The position numbers were made by a program, and so were the translations under genes. A stretch of DNA of 20,000 nucleotides from Phyllosticta citribraziliensis (Eukaryota). Position 1 is the stretch's first letter. Each line of letters starts with the position of its first letter. Location: the NCBI RefSeq assembly GCF_038025025.1, contig NW_027117355.1, positions 116,721 to 136,720 on the forward strand, in the 5' to 3' direction. The notes under the pieces are model-generated. The model did no database searches. It had not been told where the DNA came from and saw only the letters and a program-made list of their open reading frames with translations. Below, one piece after another: positions 5,156 to 20,000 of the stretch.

Positions 5156-6075
5156 CTACACAAGTGCGCCACGATTCATCAAAACCTCTTCCTTCTGCCT
5201 TCGACGCTCCAGCTTCTCTTCCAGGACTTTCTTCTTCTCGTCGCGTACCCGGTACCACTCTTCTTTGGCTCTTTGACGCAGTGTCTTCCGTTGGTTTTCT
5301 TTGATCTCCTTGTCCCTTTTGGCCTGCTGTTCTCGGCTGTACCTCCTGTCCAACTTTGCTTGGTCTTTCGCAGACAAAACCCAGGGTTCCTGCAAAATGT
5401 CCCGCATGTATTTTGCGGTCCCGACCCAGTTCCTGATCTCGTCGGCCGTGCTTTTGATCACCGAACACTGTTTCAGCTCTAGCTGGTTGATTTGGCGGTA
5501 CGAGTCGAGGGAGCATTGGACGCGGAGGACCGTTCCGATGTCGACGACCGTCCCATCGACCAGGACGTTGAGGAAGCCGATGCCACTTTCGACGCGGACG
5601 TTGGGGACGACCGTGTTGCTTTCGTGAGTGCCCGTTTTGTCGAGCTGGTCGGGCCGCAGCCGTTCGAGCTTGACTTCAACCGTAGCGCCAGAGCCATCGT
5701 CGAGGGTGAACAGGACGAGGAGGGGCGTGGGCGCTCCAATCTCGACGACGGTTCCAACGACGCGGACGAAGCGGATGGGATGATTCAGGTAGTAGAAAAG
5801 TCGGAAGAAAGGTTTGTGTGACATAACGCTGCTAATATAGGTGGAGTGACCTAAGCAGAAGAAGAAGTGTAATGTTAGCGAGGAGCAAGGAGACTTTTAG
5901 GAGCGACTGAGCGGGAGGTTGCATGTCGTGTTTACCTACCCAGGCCGGGCGGCGGTTTGCGCAGCGCGTGGACGCCGGCCGCAGTGAGTTTGGCCCATGA
6001 GTGGTACGTCGGAGACAGGTCGAAATAACGCGGGGGATAAAAGGTCAGACTCTGTCGTTCCGGTTGGGTGGTCAT
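5156..6075 (-). CDS. STN1: CST complex subunit Stn1 (OB-fold telomere-capping protein); complement(join(5156..5850,5940..6075)), 276 aa
   Basis: Exon 1 reads MTTQPERQSLTFYPPRYFDLSPTYHSWAKLTAAGVHAL. The 89-nt intron (5939-5851) is GTAGGT...GCTAAC-pyrimidine tract-TAG and joins in frame. Exon 2 has FYYLNHPIRFVRVVGTVV...TLDDGSGATVEV...VDIGTVLRV, typical of fungal Stn1 OB folds, and a coiled-coil-like tail. Confidence 0.88.
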
Positions 6076-7883: not shown

Positions 7884-8483
7884 ATGTTCCCTCAGCCCGC
7901 CACATTTCTCCCGCTGCTCCTGCCTCTCGCGGCAGCCGCTCCAGCAATACTCGATTCTCGCGGCCTGCTCAATCCCGCGCCCTTCAAGCTTGTCGCCAAT
8001 GTCACGGCCTTTCCCATCACGCCCAACGTCACCTCGTACGAGGCTGCCTTCAAGCCGTTCACAGACAAGTCCTGCATGGGTTCCGTCTATCTCGTCCCGT
8101 CCGGCGGCGAGAAGTGGGCGCAGTGGACGCTCACCGACAACGGCACTACGTATACGACTGTCAACCGCGACCCGAGCGGAAACGGCGATGGCAGGGGTAG
8201 CACAGGTGGTATAATCGTGACGCCTGGTGGCACGGCGACGGTTCCCTCGGCCAACACTGTCAATGTCAACGCGTGTGGCGTGGGAAGTCCTGGGGTTGGT
8301 ATCGTGAACAATGAGTTGCTTGGATGGAAGGACGGATGGACTGGGGGCTGGATGGCCTGCCCAGTGTCGCTTGTCCCCGGATCGTACGGCAAGGCTGGAG
8401 ATATTGTCCTGAGCGTCAAGAATGAGGGTCAGAGGACCATCTACGGGTGTTCGAATGTCGACTTGAAGGTCGTGTATGTTTGA
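7884..8483 (+). CDS. Small secreted protein (199 aa), cell-wall protein PhiA/IgE-binding-protein-like
   Basis: Signal peptide MFPQPATFLPLLLPLAAAAP, then PFKLVA, a GGWMACP motif and a C-terminal GCSNVDLKVVYV, resembling fungal cell-wall/secreted proteins. Four Cys. Family assignment is by resemblance only. Confidence 0.75.
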   Translation: MFPQPATFLPLLLPLAAAAPAILDSRGLLNPAPFKLVANVTAFPITPNVTSYEAAFKPFTDKSCMGSVYLVPSGGEKWAQWTLTDNGTTYTTVNRDPSGNGDGRGSTGGIIVTPGGTATVPSANTVNVNACGVGSPGVGIVNNELLGWKDGWTGGWMACPVSLVPGSYGKAGDIVLSVKNEGQRTIYGCSNVDLKVVYV

Positions 8484-10118: not shown

Positions 10119-10913
10119 ATGTTGAGGAAAAAAGCACCAGTACCGCCGCCACAGGAAGAGCTTGGAGTCATCGGGCGCAAGTGGCTCCTCTGTCCCTTTA
10201 TCCAGCAACACCAGGTCGAGGAAATCATTCGGAGCTGCGAGTGGTGCGGGGAGTACTTCTCGCTGTGCTGCGTGCACCCCTTGAGCGGCCAGAACAACCA
10301 GCGCGACAGCCACGTCTGCCACCACCGCTCGCTCGTCTTCACCGACGGCGCCTGTCTCAAGAATGGCAAGGAAGAGGCGCGCGCTGGCTACGGCGTCGTT
10401 GTGGGAACGGCCGAGGACCAGTCATACAGCGTGCCCCTCGAGGACGAACACGTGACCAGCCAGAGAGCCGAGTTGATTGGGGCGTACGAAGGCATTGTGA
10501 AGGGCATGAAGCACTTTCGGGAGAGGAAGACGCATCCGATGCCCGTGGCCCAGGAGAAGCGGACGGAGCTGGTCATCGCAACCGATTCCGAATACGTCGT
10601 GGCGGGCATGACCGAGTGGCTGCCCAAGTGGAAGGTGAGCACTCATCGAGCATTCAAAGTGGGCGGCGCAAGAGATCTCGGGCTTACCACGGTGCGCGTG
10701 TAGGTCAAAGGGTTCAAGAACTCGTCGGGCAAGGCGCCGAGCAACCTCGACCTTTTTCTCAAGATTGACGAGAAGATCAAGGAGCTCGAGGAGCCCGAGG
10801 ATATTGTCATTGGCTTTTGGCACGTACCGCGCAAGTACAACGTCTTGGCGGACAGACTAGCCAAAGGCGCTGCTGAGGGGCCGGCGGAGCCCGTTGACCA
10901 GGCCGAAGTTTGA
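10119..10913 (+). CDS. RNase H1-like protein, paralog B; join(10119..10634,10704..10913), 241 aa
   Basis: Motifs VFTDGAC, TSQRAEL, IATDSEYVVAGMTEWLPKWK|VKGF, NLDLF and WHVPRKYNVLADRLAK give a full D76/E118/D156/D222 set. The 69-nt intron GTGAGC...TAG is at the same codon position as in paralog A. Confidence 0.9.
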
Positions 10914-11480
10914 GGGCAACATGCCGTTGACAAGTGATGAATGCTCCTTGGTGGTGCCGTTGTGACCGAGCTGGTTCTGTCGAGCGTCATCAACCCATGC
11001 AGGTGACGGGAAGTAGCGGCAGCTGAGGTTGAGGAAGAGCCGCGAGCCGCATCGCGATTGAGGCGAGAGTCGGGCGCAAGCTGGCGCCGAGCGCATGTGC
11101 GGACGCGCCCGAGACGTGGAGAGTAAAGAGCAGGTAGACATGTGGCGAGAGGGAACACTGCCAGTCGTTGGAAAATACGGCGTGTCCAGGTCGTAATGTT
11201 GCTCTCCACCATGATCTCGGGCACAGTGCGAGGATGCCAGCAAAATGCTGGCATCATGTTGATCCTGTCGAAGAGCATCAAGCCGAGGGAAAGCAAGTAT
11301 ATGAAGCAAGATCACCTGAGAGAAGGCCAAGAGCACTACATAGAGGAAACCCGAAATCCAAACCCATCCATCATGATCTGCGCGTGCCAAACCCCAAAGT
11401 CCTCTTCCACCAGCACACTGACCTGACCCCTCAAGCCTGCAAACCACCCGCTATAAGGCAATAAAGCCAGACAGATATGC

Positions 11481-11557
11481 GGGTGGATTGAGAGGAGCAG
11501 AGGACGTCGGCCCACTTCAATCCTGGGCATGCCTCTTCTGGTCCTCTCAATCCACTC
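11481..11557 (+). ncRNA. Putative hairpin RNA 1 (pre-milRNA-like)
   Basis: 11481-11504 pairs with 11534-11557 (21 WC, 2 G-U, 1 mismatch). Inner stem GCCCA/TGGGC closes a 9-nt loop. Followed by TTTATTTTAATTTTT. Confidence 0.5.
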
Positions 11558-11606
11558 CTTTATTTTAATTTTTGGTCTCCTCTTGTGCGCCATGGCCGAA
11601 AAGGGA

Positions 11607-11653
11607 AAGTCCATGTGCGCAGGTTCGAGTCGCTGAGCGCGCCGTATTCTTTT
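11607..11653 (+). repeat. 47-bp repeated element, copy 1, with B-box-like core GGTTCGAGTC
   Basis: 41/47 identical to 11905-11951 (offset 298 bp). Confidence 0.85.
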
Positions 11654-11722
11654 TCGTGGCGTAGTCTTGCGCTGCACTGAAGTGTTCTGAGGGCTGCTCT
11701 ACGGCGTCCCCCAACCACGGAC

Positions 11723-11750
11723 CTATAAATAATCAACTGCCCTATATAAA
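11723..11750 (+). promoter_or_regulatory. Tandem TATA-like boxes upstream of hairpin 2
   Basis: TATAAAT and TATATAAA, the latter ending about 22 nt before the stem starts at 11773. No protein-coding gene follows. Confidence 0.45.
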
Positions 11751-11772
11751 GCCAAAAGTGCGAATAATTCCC

Positions 11773-11856
11773 AAGTGGTAATTTAGCGTCATGGCCGTAC
11801 CTCCCTGAAGCACAAGGAGGCAGGTACGGCCATGACCCTAAATTGCCACTTTTTTT
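11773..11856 (+). ncRNA. Putative hairpin RNA 2 (pre-milRNA-like) ending in T7
   Basis: AAGTGGTAATTTAGCGTCATGGCCGTACCT (11773-11802) pairs with AGGTACGGCCATGACCCTAAATTGCCACTT (11822-11851): 28 WC, 1 G-U, 1 C-C mismatch. T7 at 11850-11856. Confidence 0.55.
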
Positions 11857-11904
11857 CCCTCACTACTTTGTTGATTTGCTAGAAGCGAAACGTCCTAAAA
11901 CAGC

Positions 11905-11951
11905 AAGTGGATGTGCGCAAGTTCGAGTCGCCGGGCGCGCCGCATTCTTTT
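11905..11951 (+). repeat. 47-bp repeated element, copy 2, with B-box-like core AGTTCGAGTC
   Basis: 41/47 identical to 11607-11653. Confidence 0.85.
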
Positions 11952-12001
11952 GGATGGTGCGCTGTGACGAGAGAGAGGTTTCTGGCCAGAGTAAGTGTCG
12001 A

Positions 12002-12212
12002 AAGAGATGAGACTTTCTGGCAACGTGTGTGCATCTTGGGAGCTTTCATTTGCTCCGTAGATGCGCTTAAGGAGCATTCATTCGCTGCCAGAGGTGCACT
12101 CAAGGAGCATTCATGCACTGCTCTCATTGCACTTGGGAAGCAGTCGCTCATTGGTGCACCCAGACCAAGGAAGTCTCATTTCTTCCTGTGGCGGTGGTTA
12201 TCTTGCTTTTTT
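12002..12212 (+). ncRNA. Putative structured RNA 3 (long basal stem enclosing a multibranch region)
   Basis: 12002-12017 pairs with 12169-12184 over 16 contiguous bp (2 G-U), extended by TGG/CCA and GTGCATC/GGTGCAC. T6 at 12207-12212. Confidence 0.4.
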
Positions 12213-12638
12213 GCCATTGCGTCTACCTTGTCGTCATATCATGGCCTTGGTGTTCTACGCCCGCGGGCCCAGATCTGAAAGTTCAGAAGCAAGATCTCCG
12301 ATCCGCCGCCCTAATGACACCGGACTGGTCGTTGCTGTGTGATCGTCTCTGCGACCCGTCTCGATTCTTGACGTCGTCTGAGCATTCCTCACGAATCGAA
12401 TCAACCCATCCCATCACGAGCAATTCACTGGCGTGAGGCTGCTTCTGTGAGGTACGAGAATTGTGGTATACCCATCCTAACGCCAGCCCGTTTATATGCA
12501 CATTTTAAACAAACACTCTTGCTCTTTCTGAAAGTGTCTCAAATTCTCCCACCCGCCTCCGCAAAAGTGCTGGACCGGGTGTGGAGATTGTGTACGAAAA
12601 AATGCGTCGCGTGCCAAATCCAATGCTTCCTATTTCCT

Positions 12639-13157
12639 TTATTTCCGCTTGTGGGGTCCGACGAGCTTGGGGTACATGCGCGACAGGTGGTAGTTGATGT
12701 TGTTCGTCTTGGTCACGTTGGATTTCTGGAGTCTTCTGGTTAGAGTTGCGACGAGTTGGCGGACTGGCTGAAGTGCTGTTACCGGCGCGTCCATGCACAT
12801 TCTCAGTTGTTGCTCAACTGCTGCGCAGCCTGCTACGTTGTATCCGTGCGAAGCCCAGCAACCTGCATGTTGCACATCAGCACATCTTTCCTGGGAACAG
12901 TTTCAAGACAGAGCTGTCGAGCGTCCAATCCAACATGCTGCGCCCACAGCTCTTCCATGACCATCACTCCTGAGTGTCTCTCTCCAAGTCTTTCAATGTA
13001 TCCGGCAGCAAGAAAGCTTCGACGTACCCAGCACTGACGACATGACACCCAGGCATGGGTTGGGCTCGACGATGTTCGGGTTCTTGACGCGCAGCTTCGG
13101 CAGAGGAGGCAGCGGGCGCTTTGGAAGCTTCGGTCCGTTGGCCTTTGGCGGAGGCAT
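12639..13157 (-). CDS. MRP10: Mitochondrial small ribosomal subunit protein mS37/Mrp10 (twin CX9C); complement(join(12639..12725,12783..12862,13028..13157)), 98 aa
   Basis: Spliced product MPPPKANGPKLPKRPLPPLPKLRVKNPNIVEPNPCLGVMSSVLGCWASHGYNVAGCAAVEQQLRMCMDAPKSNVTKTNNINYHLSRMYPKLVGPHKRK has the twin CX9C and the INYHLSR motif. Introns are GTACGT..CTGAT..CAG (165 nt) and GTAACA..CTAAC..CAG (57 nt). Confidence 0.93.
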
Positions 13158-13462: not shown

Positions 13463-16400
13463 ATGACCGACTCCTCAACAACGTCCACACCGCCGCCCGC
13501 GGAGCAAGGACAACCCACGCGACCTCCGTCCTTCGACGCTTCTTGGGATGCCACCGACGCGTCTGCCTTTGATCCCGCCTCTCTTCCCCTGGCCAAGGCG
13601 CCGCGCGCTTGGGAACGCCAGCCGCACTCGCCCTTTGCGCGCACTGGCAAGTACCGCAAGGTCTGGAAGCGCAACGAATTGCGAACGACTCGATCGCAGA
13701 CCAAGACTGGCGATGGGAAGGAGTCGCTGAACCAGGACGAGGACGGTGGCATGCAGAGTCCCAGGAAAATCGTCAAGAAACGCGTTCTGGACGCGCCGCC
13801 TGAAGACCCAACTGCGACGCCGGGCAGGGTCCGCCCAAAGAGCAAGGCTTTCGCGCCGACGCGGTATGATGATTCGCCGCGAAGACACAGTGGGAGGATC
13901 GCACGTATGCAGCAGCGCTCTTGGATTTGTGATGTCGAAGGCTGACAGACTCAGGCAAACTTGTTTCCATGGACCACTCCGAGTCGAGCTCTGCCACCTA
14001 CGGCTCCGTTTGGACTGGCGAACAGGCAAAGGGTAGCATGGGATCTAGGAGGGCTTCTTTGCAAATCATCAAGAAACGAGACTCGCTGTCTTTGGACAAC
14101 ACGCTTTTCGAGACGACGACGGCAACCGTACAAGACTCTGCGACCTCAGAGACCGCGCGTGAGGAAACCGCTGATGAGGTCGATCAAGATTCCGCATCAT
14201 TGTCGATTACTAGCGAACAAGAGGCGGAAGAACAAGTGGTTGAGCAGGCAGCTGAAGAGGATGAAGGTAGCCCCACCCGCGAGGTGAATGCGAAAGACGA
14301 AAACCGGGACATATCTTTTCAGGCAGATGCTGCCTCCCGCGCTGCTCCTCTCGAGGCTGTTGACTCGGAGGCCTCTGGTCAAGACACAATGCCTGAGAGC
14401 GGCGTTGCCGATACTGGGAGTGAAGAGACCCTGGAGCTGGAGAACGCTGCAGAACAGCTAGGCAGTGCCGATGCGCTGCCAATCGCAGCACCGGAAGACA
14501 AGCCGCAGCACCGAGTTGTTGAAGTTTCGGAAGAGCAGGATTCAGATGCCCTACAGCCAGAGACTGCGCCAGAAATCACCTCTCCCGCCACGGCTGCCCC
14601 CGGCAGTGCGCCAACTGAGGCCATTGCGGACTCTGATTCGATTGTTCATGATGGAACCACTGGTGGTTCGGAAATGCTTGCGCAGAGTCGATTGGAAGCA
14701 GATAACCAGGATCGTCAACAATTCGAGACGGCGATACCAGAGACCGACACCATCAACCATGATGCCCAAGAGCCAGAGGCTGAGGTTTCAGTGCAAGAAG
14801 CTGTGACTGAATCAAATGAAGAAGGCACCGCGGACGCGTTTGAAGAGGGATCTGTCGCCCAAAGGCCGGACGTTCAACAAGACGAGGAGCAGGAGGAGCC
14901 CGATCGATCCGCGCAACTTGAAAACGAAGTTGAGGACTCTACCCAAGATGCTGGCTTCTCCACGAGCCCAGTGGAACCGCCTCGAAGACCCAACCTAGAA
15001 TTCAGCGCTAGTTCGTTGTTCGGCGAAGCTCTTGACACGGATGACGGAGAGAAGGAGCCAGAAAGTGCAGAAGCGGACTTGAATGAGACCGGTAGCGACG
15101 GATCTGAAGATGCGGAGGATTCGTTGATCGACATGCCATCGCCCTCGCTTTCAAATACCGAGTCACCCAGGTTCGCTTCTGTTGCGGACACTTTGACGCT
15201 CCACCTTCCGGAAAACCTGTCATCTAGGGAAGAAGATGGTTCAGAAGAGGATGCCTCACTGGAATCACCCACGGATGCCGACACTGCCTATCTGAAGGAA
15301 TTCCTCTCTCGAAGCGATGCGGCAAAAGCAAACCGAACGGCTTCAATGTCGAAACGCGAGTCCTTCACCAACCGCCGGGATTCGGGTCGCGTTCGGCAAG
15401 CTCTTGCGTCGCCACGAGTGGCCCTCGAATCAAAGGATCCCAACTCCCCTCTCAGCGGCGACTCTCCATCGAAGCGATCAAGATCGGAGGAAGAACTAAA
15501 GCCCTCGATTAAGAAACCGAGACTGGAAGCAGAGGCCAAAGTTCTGCCTGCCGAGACGGCCTCGCAGCCGAGCGAAGACATTACTGCAGATCTAACGTTG
15601 GATCAAACTCCGACAGAAAAGAAAGAACCTACCCCAGAACCCAGATCTACCCGTCGCAGCTCCAGGGCACGAACGACGCGCATCCCTTCGACTGCAGCAG
15701 CACCGGCGCCGAACCGCATTCCTGTCCGCCGTGCAGATGGAAACGAGCCAGTCGTGTTGAAGAAAACTGAGGCTCAAGAGCTTGCAATCGCCACGCGCAC
15801 GAACACCCGCCGCAACAAGGGCGGTGCTGTAGCTGCACCGGCTCGACTCAAGAAACTCCAGGCTGAGGCGCTCAAAGCCGAACCTTCACCAAGCGGTTCT
15901 CCGCTCGTCTGTTCCAACCCCGATATTGAAATATTCGAGGCGAGCATGATCAAATGGGACCAGCAACTTGTTTACTTCCAGGACATGGAGAATCCCACTC
16001 CGGAATCTTTGTCGGACGATGAGCTGGCCAGCGGGGGCGTTGACGAGAGCCTGAAATCGAAAAGGGCTACTACACCGCGTGCAAGGCGCACACGGGGCCT
16101 TGGTGCATCCAACGGGACCCCCGCAAAAGGTCTGCTCGCACCGGCAAATCTGCTCCCCGAAAGTGTACAAGCAGAAGTTGAGGCAACAAAGTCTGAAGCT
16201 AAGAAGCCCGCCAAAGTGGGCAGGCCAAAGAAGGCCAGCACTCCAGCCAAACAGACGACTACGGGCCCGCCGACAAACTTGGATCCATTGGCATCCCTCG
16301 TGGAGAGCGCCGAGAAGCCGCGAAAAGAAACTCCCATTCCCCTTCCCAAGCCCAACCCACCGAAGTTTCCTCCGTCACAACTTCCCACTCCAGCTCCGGT

Positions 16401-16632
16401 TACGGCCAGGAAGAGCCGTCTCCAAAGTCCCAAGAAGATCAAGCTGCCTGGGCCTGTACAGCCTGCTGCCAAACAAGCACAGAGCAAAGCAGGTGGGGTA
16501 GGGATTACGGGCGGTACACCTAAGAAGATGCCGGTCACTAGGCTAGGTGCGACGAGTGGCGAGAACACCGCGAACGCGACGGGAAGCAGCATGAGCATTG
16601 GACAGCGGAGACGCGCAGGGAGAAGGGCGTAG
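13463..16632 (+). CDS. Large, largely disordered uncharacterised fungal protein; join(13463..13904,13955..16632), 1039 aa
   Basis: The 50-nt intron GTATGC...GCTGAC...CAG (13905-13954) joins the two ORFs in frame. Basic N-terminal motif PRAWERQP...KVWKR, very acidic middle, K/R/P-rich C-terminus. Confidence 0.82.
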
Positions 16633-17513: not shown

Positions 17514-19223
17514 ATGTTGAGAGCCACTTGTGGACCGCTGAAACGAAAAGTCGCACTACTATTCCTCCTCACCATTATTCGACCCGCAATCTCGACCCCA
17601 GGAGCCTTTGACGTCGACTTTACCAAAAACGTCGCGCCGGCCGCGAAGAACAGTCTGGACGACAAGAGCCGGCTTCCCGCTCAGGTCTGCGGCATTATCG
17701 GCGCCTACCTGGCCTTCGTTTTCCTGGTCGGCGTTTCACTGCTCACGTTTGGACGCAAGATGCGGCGCGCGGTGCATGAACGAATCGACGTGGTCAAGGC
17801 CAACCAGTCGAATGGTTTCGAGCTGTCGCCCATGTCGCCCGGCTCGGCGACGCGGTCTAGATGGTGGGCGCCGCAGAGCCCCAGCCGTTTGAAGCAGGCG
17901 TTCAAACGAAACCCGGGGACTACAAATCCTGAGAGCGTGCCCACGAGTCCGCTCAGCGCAACCGAGAGCATGGCGTCTTTTGACCAGCACTTTTTGCGGA
18001 ACCAGCAGGAGCAGCGCCAGCGCGAGATGGAGAAGCTGTATGCTGCCGTTATGGAGCATGATGAGGAGAGGAGGAAGCAAAAGATCCGCGAGTCGGCCGA
18101 AGAGCTTGCTGATGAGGATGCCATTCAAAAGGCGGCCAGAGAAGCTGTTCAGAGTCCGGCGAGGCTCAACACCAACTCGCTTTACCCACCCAGTCCGGCC
18201 AGCCCCTCACCACAGAGTCCTGTGCGCGCCATCCATTCATCTGGTGGCAGCCGTCGTCAATTCTCTGGACCTCCACCAACTCTAAGAGAAGGACAGGGGT
18301 TTGGCATGCAACAGGAAGAGCCGCAATCTCTGTCGCCGCGTGGATTCTTCTCAAGGGCCAGGACACCATCCTACGGGTCGTCAGAGAGCAAACCACGCCG
18401 CTCGATCCGCAACCTCCGCATCAGCAGCCCCATCCCGCGCTTCTCAGCCGCAGAGCGTGACGAAGAAGCCAGGACGCCGCTCTCTCCACGGCACTACACC
18501 CCCGGCCCACCCCCTGAGCCGCCGTCCGCCACGACGGTCGACACGCCCACGACAGCCGAGTCGCTGGGGCCCTTCCGCTACGACGACCTGGACCGCCCGC
18601 CAACATACTACCGGCCAGACGTGCCGCAGCAGTTCGCAAGCCGCCGCTCCGCATCCAGCCCCATCAAGGACCCCTACCGCAACAGCACGAACAACAACAG
18701 CCCTCCGCCGCACTTCCCGCTGCAAACGCCCACCTCGCCCACCGCCGCTACGGTGCCCGTCCTCCTCGACCGCCCGCAGCACCACCAGCCGCCGCCGCCC
18801 GCCCTGCGCCTGGCCACCGCGACGCACTCGTCCCAGCAGGGCCCGCCGCAGCACTCGGCCGCCTCGAGCACCAGCACGCTGCCCTTCCGCGCGCTGCACC
18901 CCGACACCGACGCCTACTCGCCCGTCGCGACCAAGACGACGGTCCTGGAGACGCGGCACCGCGGCGGCGGCGGCGGCGGCGGCGGTTTGCTGTCCCCTGC
19001 GTCGCGGCTGCGCACGCCTGGCACCGCGGGAGGTGGAGGCGTGCCCATGACGCCGTATTCGCCGTATATGCCGTTTACGCCCATCACGCCTGTTACGCCG
19101 CACTTGGTGACGCGTAAGGAGCGCAAGATGCGGGAGAAGGAGGAGAGGAGGGCTAGGGGACGGGCGGGGGTGGTTGATGAGGAGGATGAGGTGGGCGCTG
19201 TGGATTGGGGTGATGCTTATTAG
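17514..19223 (+). CDS. Predicted single-pass membrane protein with long Ser/Pro-rich cytoplasmic tail (569 aa), uncharacterised
   Basis: Signal-like N-terminus (VALLFLLTIIRPAIS), TM helix VCGIIGAYLAFVFLVGVSLLTF followed by GRKMRR, and coiled-coil-like QQEQRQREMEKLYAAVMEHDEERRK. C-terminal PYSPYMPFTPITPVTPHLVTRKERK. Confidence 0.85.
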   Translation: MLRATCGPLKRKVALLFLLTIIRPAISTPGAFDVDFTKNVAPAAKNSLDDKSRLPAQVCGIIGAYLAFVFLVGVSLLTFGRKMRRAVHERIDVVKANQSNGFELSPMSPGSATRSRWWAPQSPSRLKQAFKRNPGTTNPESVPTSPLSATESMASFDQHFLRNQQEQRQREMEKLYAAVMEHDEERRKQKIRESAEELADEDAIQKAAREAVQSPARLNTNSLYPPSPASPSPQSPVRAIHSSGGSRRQFSGPPPTLREGQGFGMQQEEPQSLSPRGFFSRARTPSYGSSESKPRRSIRNLRISSPIPRFSAAERDEEARTPLSPRHYTPGPPPEPPSATTVDTPTTAESLGPFRYDDLDRPPTYYRPDVPQQFASRRSASSPIKDPYRNSTNNNSPPPHFPLQTPTSPTAATVPVLLDRPQHHQPPPPALRLATATHSSQQGPPQHSAASSTSTLPFRALHPDTDAYSPVATKTTVLETRHRGGGGGGGGLLSPASRLRTPGTAGGGGVPMTPYSPYMPFTPITPVTPHLVTRKERKMREKEERRARGRAGVVDEEDEVGAVDWGDAY

Positions 19224-19437: not shown

Positions 19438-20000
19438 CTACGCCAAAGCAAACTCGACCACGCGCTCCTCGCCCCCATCAACCTCAACAGCACCCTCCCC
19501 CTTCACCTCCCTCCCCAAAACACTCACGCGCCCCTTCGTCCCCGCCGGTGCCTTCACCTTCACCTGAATCTTGCCCTCGTCCTCCTCCCACGTCCACTCC
19601 ACCTCCACGCTCCCTCCAACAACCGGCACCCTTCCCCTCGCCCACCTCACGCCCAACGCGCCCCTCACAGCCTCGACAGCCGGCACGACGACCTCCCACG
19701 CCGCGAACCCCGGCGCCGTCGGCCGCACGCCGAGGACGTACATGGGCAGCACGTAGCTGGGCGCGCCGCCCCACGGATGCGCGAGCGATGTGTACGCGTC
19801 GAGCGCAGGCACGGGCGCCGCGCCGTCCAGGCCGGGCGTCATGTACTCCCAGCTGGCGCCGGAGGCGTAGGTTGGGTCGAGCATGGCGGGCCACTCGCGC
19901 GTGAGGAGGTGCGTGAGGGCGTCTTCTGCTGCGGCTGTCGCGGTGCCTGCTGGGGAGGCGGCAGTGAGCGCGGCGAAGATGGCGTGCAGCAGGAAGTGAC
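19438..20000 (-). CDS. Alpha-L-rhamnosidase (GH78 family), 3' part; gene continues beyond the window
   Basis: Frame is open to the edge: HFLLHAIF...LLTREWPAMLDPTYASGASWEY...YTSLAHPWGGAPSYVLPMYVLGVRPTAPGF...WARGRVPVVGGSVEVEW, matching the GH78 six-hairpin end and C-terminal domain. Confidence 0.88.
   Translation of the reverse strand, partial: HFLLHAIFAALTAASPAGTATAAAEDALTHLLTREWPAMLDPTYASGASWEYMTPGLDGAAPVPALDAYTSLAHPWGGAPSYVLPMYVLGVRPTAPGFAAWEVVVPAVEAVRGALGVRWARGRVPVVGGSVEVEWTWEEDEGKIQVKVKAPAGTKGRVSVLGREVKGEGAVEVDGGEERVVEFALA

What the first reader, a model, noticed from the sequence alone, without database searches (positions are those of the whole stretch)
11450..12215. Candidate Pol III small-RNA (milRNA-like) cluster: three unrelated long hairpins alternating with a repeated B-box element
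Seen: in a gap with no convincing CDS the order is TATA-like/ATAAAGCCA (11452-11469), hairpin 1 (11481-11557), T-rich tract, 47-bp repeat, TATATAAAGCCA (11743-11754), hairpin 2 (11773-11851), T7, 47-bp repeat, stem 3 (12002-12184), T6. The flanks are shared between the first two units (period about 285-298 bp) but the hairpin sequences are unrelated, so the layout is a constant cassette with variable cargo. Of the eight non-WC positions in the main stems, six are G-U on the plus strand (they would be A-C on the minus strand), which favours plus-strand RNA structure over DNA palindromes. Known: the major Neurospora crassa milRNA genes are Pol III-transcribed hairpins with TATA-like elements and poly-T ends, and yeast SNR6 uses an upstream TATA with a downstream B-box. 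Inference: this is a tandem cluster of hairpin-RNA genes.
Basis: partly seen in the sequence, partly recalled or inferred. Interest (0 to 1): 0.8.

Follow-up and report, generated by a model that had tools for sequence, protein, structure and literature searches.

The report
Two candidate Pol III hairpin-RNA genes
Between two convergent genes of a Phyllosticta fungus lie two unrelated, near-perfect 78-base hairpins, each framed by the same TATA box, T-run and downstream conserved element, which look like small RNA genes read by RNA polymerase III, though their expression has not been shown.

Summary
Hairpins 11481-11557 and 11773-11851 are the only long short-loop inverted repeats in the 20 kb. 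They fold far better than shuffles, with z -7.2 and -10.3.

Each hairpin base lies 29 or 28 nt after one of the only two TATAA[AG]G sites in the window, both strands counted. Each is followed at once by T-runs, including the window's only T7. A conserved element follows 56-60 nt later, 67 nt at 79% identity with a 41-nt core at 90%. It carries GGTTCGAGTC or AGTTCGAGTC and shows no RNA-fold signal, so it looks like a DNA-level site.

The cluster lies between the 3' ends of a plus-strand RNase H-domain gene and a minus-strand spliced gene.

The third "stem" is different. It has no TATA or B-box, holds a 33-nt tandem and dispersed repeat, and runs into the neighbour's mRNA contig.

Best reading (0.45): two Pol III hairpin-RNA genes with an SNR6-like promoter layout. 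Expression, strand, ends and Dicer processing are untested. Neither the genome nor relatives' DNA could be reached.

The parts
11452..11469 (+). TATA-like element of unit 1 (TATAAGG at 11452, ATAAAGCCA at 11461), 29 nt before the first paired base of hairpin 1
   Evidence: TATAA[AG]G occurs only at 11452 and 11745 on both strands of the window. ATAAAGCCA occurs only at 11461 and 11746.
11481..11557 (+). Hairpin 1: 30 pairs, 9-nt loop, 3 G-U pairs
   Evidence: plus strand -53.4 kcal/mol, z -7.24; minus strand -45.8 kcal/mol, z -6.07.
11559..11573 (+). T-rich tract T3-A-T4-AA-T5, candidate Pol III terminator of unit 1
   Evidence: T5 begins at 11569.
11587..11653 (+). Conserved downstream element, copy 1. 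Holds GGTTCGAGTC at 11622-11631 and ends in T5 (11650-11654). B-box-like candidate TFIIIC site plus back-up terminator.
   Evidence: No RNA-fold signal: z +0.76.
11743..11754 (+). TATA-like element of unit 2 (TATATAAAGCCA; TATAAAG at 11745), 28 nt before hairpin 2
11773..11851 (+). Hairpin 2: 32 pairs, 11-nt loop, 1 G-U pair and 2 C.C mismatches
   Evidence: plus strand -53.4 kcal/mol, z -10.26; minus strand -53.6 kcal/mol, z -8.38.
11850..11856 (+). T7. Its first two T close the stem; the rest is the candidate terminator of unit 2.
   Evidence: the only T7 in the window on either strand.
11885..11951 (+). Conserved downstream element, copy 2. Holds AGTTCGAGTC at 11920-11929 and ends in T4.
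   Evidence: No RNA-fold signal: z +0.09.
12002..12184 (.). NOT part of the cassette. A 17-nt inverted repeat encloses a 33-nt tandem array (12039-12121) that has diverged copies elsewhere in the transcriptome. It overlaps the neighbour's mRNA contig.
   Evidence: (records 2-7, 9, 14-17 at under 90% likeness, within 12062-12187).
10119..11347 (+). Left neighbour: RNase H-domain gene. First exon 10119-10634, second coding exon from about 10707, stop near 10911-10913. RNA contigs end at 11347.
   Evidence: PF00075, E 3.1e-14; contigs of X2 and X5 both stop at 11347; adapter letters follow in X2.
12639..13157 (-). Right neighbour: 98-aa protein gene on the minus strand, with two GT..AG introns (12726-12782 and about 12863-13027). 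Its mRNA contig reaches down to 12099.
   Evidence: (joint with CT..AC ends in X1 and X2). 'Mrp10/CHCH-like' is my recall and was not tested: the three exons scanned one by one gave no Pfam hit.

Best explanation
Units 1 and 2 are two independent, tandem, plus-strand small-RNA genes transcribed by RNA polymerase III.

Proposed mechanism (all steps inferred):
1. TBP/TFIIIB binds the TATAA(G/A)G box.
2. Transcription starts about 28-30 nt downstream, at the base of the hairpin. The start would be a purine after a C, at about 11481 and about 11773.
3. The polymerase runs through a 77-79-nt hairpin and stops in the T-run that directly follows the 3' arm. The product would be an 80-95-nt RNA with a 30-32-bp stem and a short U tail.
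4. The conserved 41-67-nt element 56-60 nt beyond each hairpin acts at the DNA level. It would be a downstream box-B-like TFIIIC site, as in yeast SNR6, with its own short T-run as a back-up terminator.
5. The hairpin RNAs are then the likely substrates of Dicer, giving milRNA-like small RNAs.

Shown: the anatomy, its statistical non-randomness, its orientation, and its place between the 3' ends of two convergent genes.
Inferred: Pol III use, start and stop sites, and TFIIIC binding.
More weakly inferred (about 0.3): Dicer processing and any target.
Stem 3 is not a member.
For: 1. The two hairpins are the only long short-loop inverted repeats in 20 kb. Their z-scores are -7.2 and -10.3.
2. TATAA[AG]G occurs only twice in the 40 kb of both strands, 29 and 28 nt upstream of the two hairpin bases. 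The only T7 of the window directly closes hairpin 2, and T4 and T5 runs follow hairpin 1 within 17 nt.
3. In the same script, only 0.18% of plus-strand positions have a TATAA 26-32 nt upstream, and 1.2% have a T5 in the matching downstream window.
4. The flanks are conserved while the hairpins are unrelated in sequence yet alike in size. The downstream element is 79% identical over 67 nt and 90% over 41 nt. The hairpins are 77 and 79 nt. The two hairpins share no blastn-short match at E up to 50.
5. Spacings are kept. Hairpin start to GTTCGA is 142 and 148 nt. Hairpin end to the repeat core is 56 and 60 nt (from the coordinates).
6. The conserved element has no fold signal on either strand (z +0.76, +0.09, -0.80, +0.87). 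This fits a DNA-binding site better than an RNA.
7. All 4 wobble positions in the two hairpins are G-U on the plus strand, with no A.C. Hairpin 1 is 7.6 kcal/mol more stable as plus-strand RNA. No A-run of 5 or more lies upstream of either hairpin, as a minus-strand Pol III unit would need.
8. The locus lies between the 3' ends of convergent genes, so no Pol II promoter is expected there.
9. Precedent. The Neurospora milR-1 to milR-4 genes all carry a T cluster immediately downstream. milR-1 depends on TATA-like elements for Pol III transcription (PMC3547838, passages). The printed milR-2 and milR-3 hairpins run straight into U6. SNR6 has TATA at -30 and box B beyond the terminator (PMC9136082, passages).
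10. The region is present without a difference in one RNA-derived contig of run X1.
Against: - No discrete transcript has been shown. The X1 contig is one 2738-nt piece bridging both neighbours, so it could be read-through RNA or traces of DNA. It gives no strand, ends or level.
- The other run shown to be RNA (X2), and X3 and X5, have no contig over 11348-12049. This blank is not evidence either way.
- The box-B consensus alone is at chance level in this window: 1 match against 0.82 expected. Copy 2 has A at the first G.
- Box-A-like matches are not above chance: 107 found against 96.6 expected at up to 2 mismatches. An SNR6-type promoter is therefore only partly matched.
- Hairpin 2 folds equally well on the minus strand. 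Four of four G-U is weak statistics (two-sided p about 0.125).
- The two units are duplicates, so their agreement is not two independent observations.
- Upstream similarity is limited to the TATA motif. Blast finds only the 9-mer.
- No conservation test was possible. No fungal relative's DNA could be reached: no genome is held, and the metagenome scan gave only unrelated matches.
- Whether this fungus has Dicer or Argonaute was not tested. One literature search found 3 papers, none on Phyllosticta RNAi by title or abstract start.
Confidence: 0.45

Rival explanations
1. The hairpins are made by Pol II. They lie in read-through or antisense transcripts of the two convergent neighbours, or in a TATA-driven Pol II non-coding RNA. 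They act as double-stranded RNA or Dicer substrates, or as fail-safe termination signals. On this reading the T-runs and the conserved element are ordinary 3'-end or terminator-region sequence.
For: - In run X1 a single RNA contig runs from the RNase H gene through both hairpins into the spliced minus-strand gene.
- The region is a convergent 3'-3' spacer.
- Hairpin 2 folds equally on both strands.
- The Neurospora paper reports Pol II at several low-abundance milRNA loci (passages).
Against: - Read-through does not explain why the only two TATAA[AG]G sites sit 28-29 nt before the hairpin bases. Nor does it explain why T-runs, including the only T7, directly follow the 3' arms on the plus strand.
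- It does not explain why a 41-nt core is kept at 90% at a fixed distance.
- The wobble pairs and the energy of hairpin 1 favour the plus strand.
Confidence: 0.2
2. The hairpins are DNA-level inverted repeats. They would be relics of small foldback or MITE-like insertions, or palindromic repair products, in a tandemly duplicated spacer. No dedicated RNA is made. The TATA and T-run context would reflect AT-rich insertion sites.
For: - The neighbouring stem 3 is demonstrably built of a dispersed repeat.
- A 5-nt TTCCC stands left of hairpin 2 and again 3 nt beyond its right end (my reading).
- Both hairpins also fold well as minus-strand or DNA palindromes.
Against: - The two hairpins are unrelated to each other and have no second copy in the window.
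- At 80% likeness or more, no other contig of X1 (94.5 million letters of contigs) or of X5 was laid on 11439-12006. Several were laid on stem 3. This covers transcribed sequence only and is not a genome census.
- Hairpin 1 has no flanking direct repeat.
- Pairing runs along the whole length with a 9-11-nt loop and no internal unique region, which is unusual for MITEs (established knowledge, recalled).
- This reading does not account for the kept spacing to the conserved element.
Confidence: 0.15
3. The conserved GTTCGAGTC elements are stand-alone TFIIIC or other factor sites, like ETC sites. They would serve as a chromatin boundary between the convergent genes. The hairpins beside them are unrelated to Pol III.
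For: - The element shows no RNA structure and is conserved as sequence.
- It contains the core GTTCGA of box B.
Against: - This leaves the hairpins, the TATA spacing and the T-runs unexplained.
- Box B alone is at chance level.
Confidence: 0.08

Closest known systems
Neurospora crassa Pol III-transcribed milRNA genes (milR-1 to milR-4; Lee 2010, Yang 2013)
   Same: - They are intergenic stem-loop precursors with a T cluster immediately after the 3' arm.
- milR-1 needs TATA-like elements for Pol III transcription (PMC3547838, passages).
- The printed milR-2 and milR-3 hairpins end directly in U6.
   Different: - There is no sequence similarity. An 11-nt resemblance to the milR-1 forward primer did not extend.
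- The host is a Dothideomycete, not a Sordariomycete.
- Here two units stand in tandem with shared flanks and a conserved downstream element. The passages I read do not describe this for the Neurospora genes. milR-1 is said to have no A or B box.
- Small RNAs, Dicer or QDE-2 dependence and Pol III dependence are unshown here.
Saccharomyces cerevisiae SNR6 (U6) promoter architecture
   Same: An upstream TATA at about -30, a T-run terminator, and a box-B-like element placed beyond the terminator (PMC9136082, passages).
   Different: - The product is not U6. Rfam gives no match at gathering score, and none to U6 at E up to 10.
- No box A is detectable above chance.
- The distance from the start to the candidate box B is about 142-148 nt, shorter than in SNR6, where A to B is 202 bp.
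- The second box-B copy departs from the consensus at its first base.
tRNA-linked Pol III microRNAs (murine gammaherpesvirus 68; Neurospora milR-4)
   Same: Pol III elements are combined with pre-miRNA-like hairpins that end in T-runs (PMC3547838, passages).
   Different: - No tRNA or tRNA-like fold is present. ARAGORN found 0 at default and relaxed settings, and Rfam found no tRNA at E up to 10.
- The box-B-like element lies downstream of the terminator, not upstream in a tRNA moiety.
Laboratory shRNA expression cassettes (TATA-containing Pol III promoter, hairpin, T-run)
   Same: The geometry matches: TATA, about 28 nt, hairpin, then a T5-7 stop that gives a U-tailed hairpin. The comparison rests on recall.
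   Different: This is a natural locus in a wild-type fungal genome. Its stems are 30-32 bp with mismatches and G-U pairs. It has no known promoter sequence.

Membership tests
Pol III-transcribed fungal milRNA genes (Neurospora type) | Stem-loop precursor in an intergenic region | tested here: met
   two hairpins with z -7.2 and -10.3; no coding signal in the gap.
Pol III-transcribed fungal milRNA genes (Neurospora type) | T cluster immediately downstream of the hairpin | tested here: met
   T3-A-T4-AA-T5 after hairpin 1 and T7 after hairpin 2. The feature is as stated in PMC3547838.
Pol III-transcribed fungal milRNA genes (Neurospora type) | Discrete 19-25-nt small RNAs from the arms, bound by Argonaute and mostly Dicer-dependent | not testable with these tools
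   No small-RNA data could be reached. The look-up of sequencing runs listed no holder on record as RNA. The contigs laid cannot show small RNAs.
Pol III-transcribed fungal milRNA genes (Neurospora type) | Pol III dependence (inhibitor sensitivity, Pol III ChIP) | not testable with these tools
   This needs an experiment.
Pol III-transcribed fungal milRNA genes (Neurospora type) | Sequence homology to a published milRNA hairpin | tested here: not met
   the Neurospora rows were read; two hairpin motifs are absent from all 9 supplementary files of the 2022 compendium; 0 papers hold either motif.
SNR6-type Pol III promoter | TATA box about 30 bp upstream of the start | tested here: met
   TATAA[AG]G lies 29 and 28 nt before the hairpin bases. 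The true start site is not known.
SNR6-type Pol III promoter | Box B (GGTTCGANNCC-like, consensus recalled) downstream of the terminator | tested here: inconclusive
   - Copy 1 matches GGTTCGANNC and copy 2 has AGTTCGAGTC.
- The consensus alone is at chance level.
- The 19-mer around it occurs twice against 0.03 expected.
SNR6-type Pol III promoter | Intragenic box A (TRGCNNAGTGG, consensus recalled) near +20 | tested here: inconclusive
   hits at up to 2 mismatches are at chance level (107 against 96.6). Hairpin 2 has 2 such hits. Hairpin 1 has none on the plus strand.
tRNA genes or tRNA-derived SINEs | Cloverleaf or tRNA-like segment containing the B box | tested here: not met
   ARAGORN 0 genes at default and at -ps80; no tRNA match at E up to 10.
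MITE or foldback transposon | Many related copies in the genome, with target-site duplications | tested here: inconclusive
   - Hairpins 1 and 2: no second copy in the window, and no extra contig laid on them in 4 runs. The genome itself was not available. There is no consistent flanking duplication.
- Stem 3: diverged copies in other contigs.

The most novel reading that the evidence does not exclude
The locus is a natural modular 'shRNA array'. It would be a conserved Pol III frame of TATA box, terminator and downstream TFIIIC-type element, in which the roughly 78-nt hairpin cargo is replaced rather than slowly mutated. New hairpins of fixed size would be installed into a constant expression cassette. 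Such hairpins could, for example, be inverted copies of transposon, virus or host-plant targets. This would give a Dothideomycete a heritable, exchangeable set of guide-RNA genes.
Probability: 0.1. Interest if true: 0.85.

Novelty: new variant of a known kind. Interest (0 to 1): 0.55.

Why it matters
Pol III-made hairpin small RNAs in fungi rest almost entirely on four Neurospora loci. Their promoters are poorly defined, and milR-1 is called 'non-conventional'.

This locus would be a tandem pair with a clear TATA / 28 nt / hairpin / T-run / conserved downstream element grammar, in a distant class (Dothideomycetes). If real, it would do three things:
- It would give a searchable promoter signature for finding such genes genome-wide.
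- It would show that the SNR6-style split promoter is used for hairpin RNAs.
- It would offer a natural case of conserved frame and diverged cargo, for asking how fungal miRNA-like genes are born.

No paper in the held library prints these sequences. By the title listing, none of the 15 listed of 28 papers holding 'Phyllosticta' and 'small RNA' is a small-RNA study of Phyllosticta. Only 1 paper holds both 'milRNA' and 'TFIIIC', and it is a review.

Tried and rejected
- WHOLE GENOME. None is held for this window. Copy number, other cassettes, the species' own U6, 5S and tRNA promoters, and hairpin targets could not be examined.\n- RFAM. At gathering score there are 0 matches in the window. At E up to 10 on 11300-12350 there are 9 weak matches. 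The best is mir-1296 at 25.4 bits against a gathering score of 100, and it scores on both strands, so it reflects generic hairpin likeness.\n- ARAGORN. It found 0 tRNAs at default and relaxed settings. The mitochondrial mode gave 16 calls that tile the region on both strands; I took these as noise.\n- HOMOLOGY TO NEUROSPORA milR-1. I suspected it from an 11-nt resemblance to the milR-1 forward primer. The primers have 0 matches at up to 3 mismatches, and the printed milR-1 hairpin is unrelated. Rejected.\n- METAGENOME SCAN with the 19-mer of the repeat. It returned 46 loci with G+C 0.51-0.76. None extends into the repeat's flanks by eye. L021 shares 10 further letters after a 1-nt shift but has no hairpin or tRNA nearby. 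All were taken as chance matches in unrelated, mostly high-G+C DNA.\n- VIRAL-CONTIG SCANS with one motif from each hairpin. They gave 3 matches without flank extension for one motif and 0 for the other.\n- EARLIER FINDINGS OF THIS SCAN. Four look-ups returned nothing.\n- SEQUENCING RUNS. No RNA holder is listed. After laying the runs, X2, X3 and X5 have no contig over 11348-12049. This is a part without cover, not evidence.\n- RNA STRUCTURE IN THE 67-NT REPEAT. The consensus fold is weak (-12.6 kcal/mol) and rests on 2 sequences. Single folds have z near 0. The idea that the repeat is a structured RNA or a tRNA remnant was rejected.\n- BOX A. At chance level.\n- HAIRPIN ARMS AGAINST THE WINDOW. 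The longest exact match is 11 nt. One 14-nt and one 17-nt match have mismatches at E above 1. There is no local target.
Full report
WHAT IS THERE

The window is fungal. An 887-aa ORF at 13969-16632 is 100% identical to a protein named from Phyllosticta citribraziliensis. Its next relatives come from other Phyllosticta species at 87-54% identity. Pfam finds Stn1 and DUF7907 elsewhere in the window.

In 11450-11960 the sequence shows two units with the same order of parts.

Unit 1:
- TATAAGG at 11452 and ATAAAGCCA at 11461.
- Hairpin 11481-11557.
- T3-A-T4-AA-T5 at 11559-11573.
- A conserved element at 11587-11653, which ends in T5.

Unit 2:
- TATATAAAGCCA at 11743.
- Hairpin 11773-11851.
- T7 at 11850-11856.
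- The conserved element again at 11885-11951, ending in T4.

IS IT MORE THAN CHANCE?

The hairpins have arms of 32 nt (81% complementary, 9 nt apart) and 34 nt (91%, 11 nt apart). As plus-strand RNA both fold at -53.4 kcal/mol, with z -7.24 and -10.26, and 0 of 200 shuffles do as well. They are the top two of only 7 inverted pairs in the 20 kb at these settings. The other five have arms of 19 nt or less.

The flanking motifs are just as rare:
- ATAAAGCCA occurs twice against 0.04 expected.
- TATAA[AG]G occurs only at 11452 and 11745 on both strands together, 29 and 28 nt before the first paired bases.
- T7 occurs once, directly after hairpin 2.
- Only 0.18% of plus-strand positions have a TATAA 26-32 nt upstream, and 1.2% have a T5 in the matching downstream window.

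The downstream element is 79% identical over 67 nt and 90% over a 41-nt core. Its 19-mer occurs twice against 0.03 expected.

The two hairpins share no detectable sequence with each other. They are nearly the same size, at 77 and 79 nt.

One caution applies throughout. The two units are evidently duplicates, so they are not independent trials.

WHICH STRAND?

All four wobble positions in the two hairpins are G-U on the plus strand, and there are no A.C positions. Hairpin 1 is 7.6 kcal/mol better on the plus strand. Hairpin 2 is equal on both.

The T-runs lie 3' of the hairpins on the plus strand. No A-run of 5 or more lies 5' of either hairpin. The orientation signal is therefore consistent but statistically modest.

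THE CONSERVED ELEMENT

It shows no RNA-fold signal on either strand, with z between -0.80 and +0.87. Its two-sequence consensus fold is weak. No tRNA-like fold is found by ARAGORN at default or relaxed settings, or by Rfam at E up to 10. It therefore behaves as a conserved DNA site.

It contains GGTTCGAGTC in copy 1 and AGTTCGAGTC in copy 2. Taken alone, the box-B consensus is at chance level here: 1 match against 0.82 expected. A box-A search is also at chance: 107 matches against 96.6 expected. The resemblance to box B is thus a lead. It is supported by conservation and fixed spacing, not by the motif itself.

CONTEXT FROM RNA CONTIGS

Laying four coded runs on 10800-12900 showed that X1 and X2 are RNA. 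Both carry a contig that skips 12726-12782 with CT..AC ends, which is a GT..AG intron of the minus strand. A second intron (about 12863-13027) follows from the loose end.

The spliced gene encodes a 98-aa protein with ATG at 13157 and stop ending at 12639. I recall it as Mrp10/CHCH-like. That name is not tested, because the exons scanned one by one gave no Pfam hit.

The left neighbour is a plus-strand RNase H-domain gene (PF00075, E 3.1e-14). Contigs of X2 and X5 both stop at 11347, and in X2 adapter letters follow. I read 11347 as the 3' end of that mRNA.

The hairpins therefore lie between the 3' ends of two convergent genes, where no Pol II promoter is expected.

Only X1 covers the hairpins. 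It does so in one 2738-nt contig that bridges both neighbours without a difference. That shows the sequence is present in an RNA library. It does not show a discrete transcript, a strand, ends or a level. X1 is also far deeper than X2 (contig depth 2600 against 60-282). Low-level read-through would be assembled there and not in X2.

THE THIRD 'UNIT' IS SOMETHING ELSE

Stem 3 is a 17-nt inverted repeat (12002-12018 / 12168-12184) with 149 nt between the arms.
- It has no TATA motif before it and no repeat copy after it.
- It folds at least as well on the minus strand.
- Its interior is a 33-nt tandem array of 2.5 copies at 12039-12121.
- Several other contigs of X1, X2 and X5 match 12062-12187 at under 90% likeness, so it is a dispersed repeat.
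- A 14-nt core of the unit recurs at 10937-10950 on the minus strand.
- From 12099 it is continuous with the spliced minus-strand mRNA contig in X2.

BEST EXPLANATION

The grammar here is TATA, 28-29 nt, hairpin, immediate T-run, then a conserved site beyond the terminator. That is what a TATA-dependent Pol III gene with a downstream TFIIIC site would look like.

The passages I read give two precedents:
- The four abundant Neurospora milRNA genes share a T cluster immediately downstream. milR-1 uses TATA-like elements for Pol III transcription and has no A or B box (PMC3547838).
- SNR6 has a TATA at -30 and an extragenic box B beyond its terminator, 202 bp from box A (PMC9136082).

The printed milR-2 and milR-3 hairpins run directly into U6 (supplement 8 of PMC9757828).

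TATA boxes at about -30 of Neurospora 5S genes and of fission-yeast Pol III genes are my recall. I saw no paper for that.

I put 0.45 on 'two Pol III hairpin-RNA genes' and about 0.3 on the further step of Dicer processing into milRNA-like RNAs.

Rivals:
- Pol II read-through or non-coding RNA hairpins (0.2).
- DNA-level foldback relics (0.15).
- Stand-alone TFIIIC-type boundary sites with unrelated hairpins (0.08).

COMPARISON AND NOVELTY

The hairpins are not homologous to any published fungal milRNA that I could check:
- I read the Neurospora rows of the 2022 compendium.
- Two hairpin motifs are absent from all 9 of its supplementary files.
- They are also absent from the main text of the whole paper library.

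In the held library:
- 28 papers hold 'Phyllosticta' and 'small RNA'. By title, none of the 15 listed is a Phyllosticta small-RNA study.
- 1 paper, a review, holds both 'milRNA' and 'TFIIIC'.

If real, this is a new variant of a known kind. It would be Pol III hairpin genes in a Dothideomycete, arranged as a tandem pair with a conserved frame and unrelated cargo.

WHAT REMAINS OPEN

No genome and no relative's DNA could be reached. Copy number, conservation, covariation, other cassettes, the species' own Pol III promoters and its RNAi genes are all untested. Expression rests on one uninformative bridging contig.

Noticed in passing
window 12027-12187 and 10937-10950 (minus strand): There is a 33-nt unit (consensus GGAGCATTCATTCGCTGCCAGAGATGCACTCAA by TRF) in 2.5 or more tandem copies. 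Diverged copies stand in several other RNA contigs of three runs. A 14-nt core recurs inverted in the 3' UTR of the RNase H-domain gene. This is a dispersed minisatellite-like family that sits in 3' UTRs.
   Followed up: partly
window 10119-11347 (+): The RNase H-domain gene has a long 3' UTR of about 430 nt. The RNA contigs of X1 and X2 begin at about 10135 and 10153, downstream of the first ATG at 10119. Either the true start codon or the 5' end of the mRNA differs from the simple model, or the contigs break at the CCGCCGCC stretch.
   Followed up: no
window 12099-12638 (-): The 98-aa protein gene appears to carry a 3' UTR of 540 nt or more, judged from a contig that is continuous from the spliced coding part down to 12099. 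That is unusually long for so small a fungal gene. A separate transcript is not excluded.
   Followed up: no
window 18501-19000 and 19501-20000: Two 500-nt bins have G+C of 0.74 and 0.71, against 0.50-0.65 in the rest of the window.
   Followed up: no
window 5156-5824 (-) and 7884-8483 (+): There is a Stn1 (telomere regulation) domain ORF and a DUF7907 ORF. The 887-aa and 490-aa ORFs gave no Pfam hit.
   Followed up: no
window 11768-11772 and 11855-11859: The 5-mer TTCCC stands directly left of hairpin 2 and again 3 nt beyond its right end. It could be a target-site duplication or simply chance. Hairpin 1 has nothing similar.
   Followed up: partly
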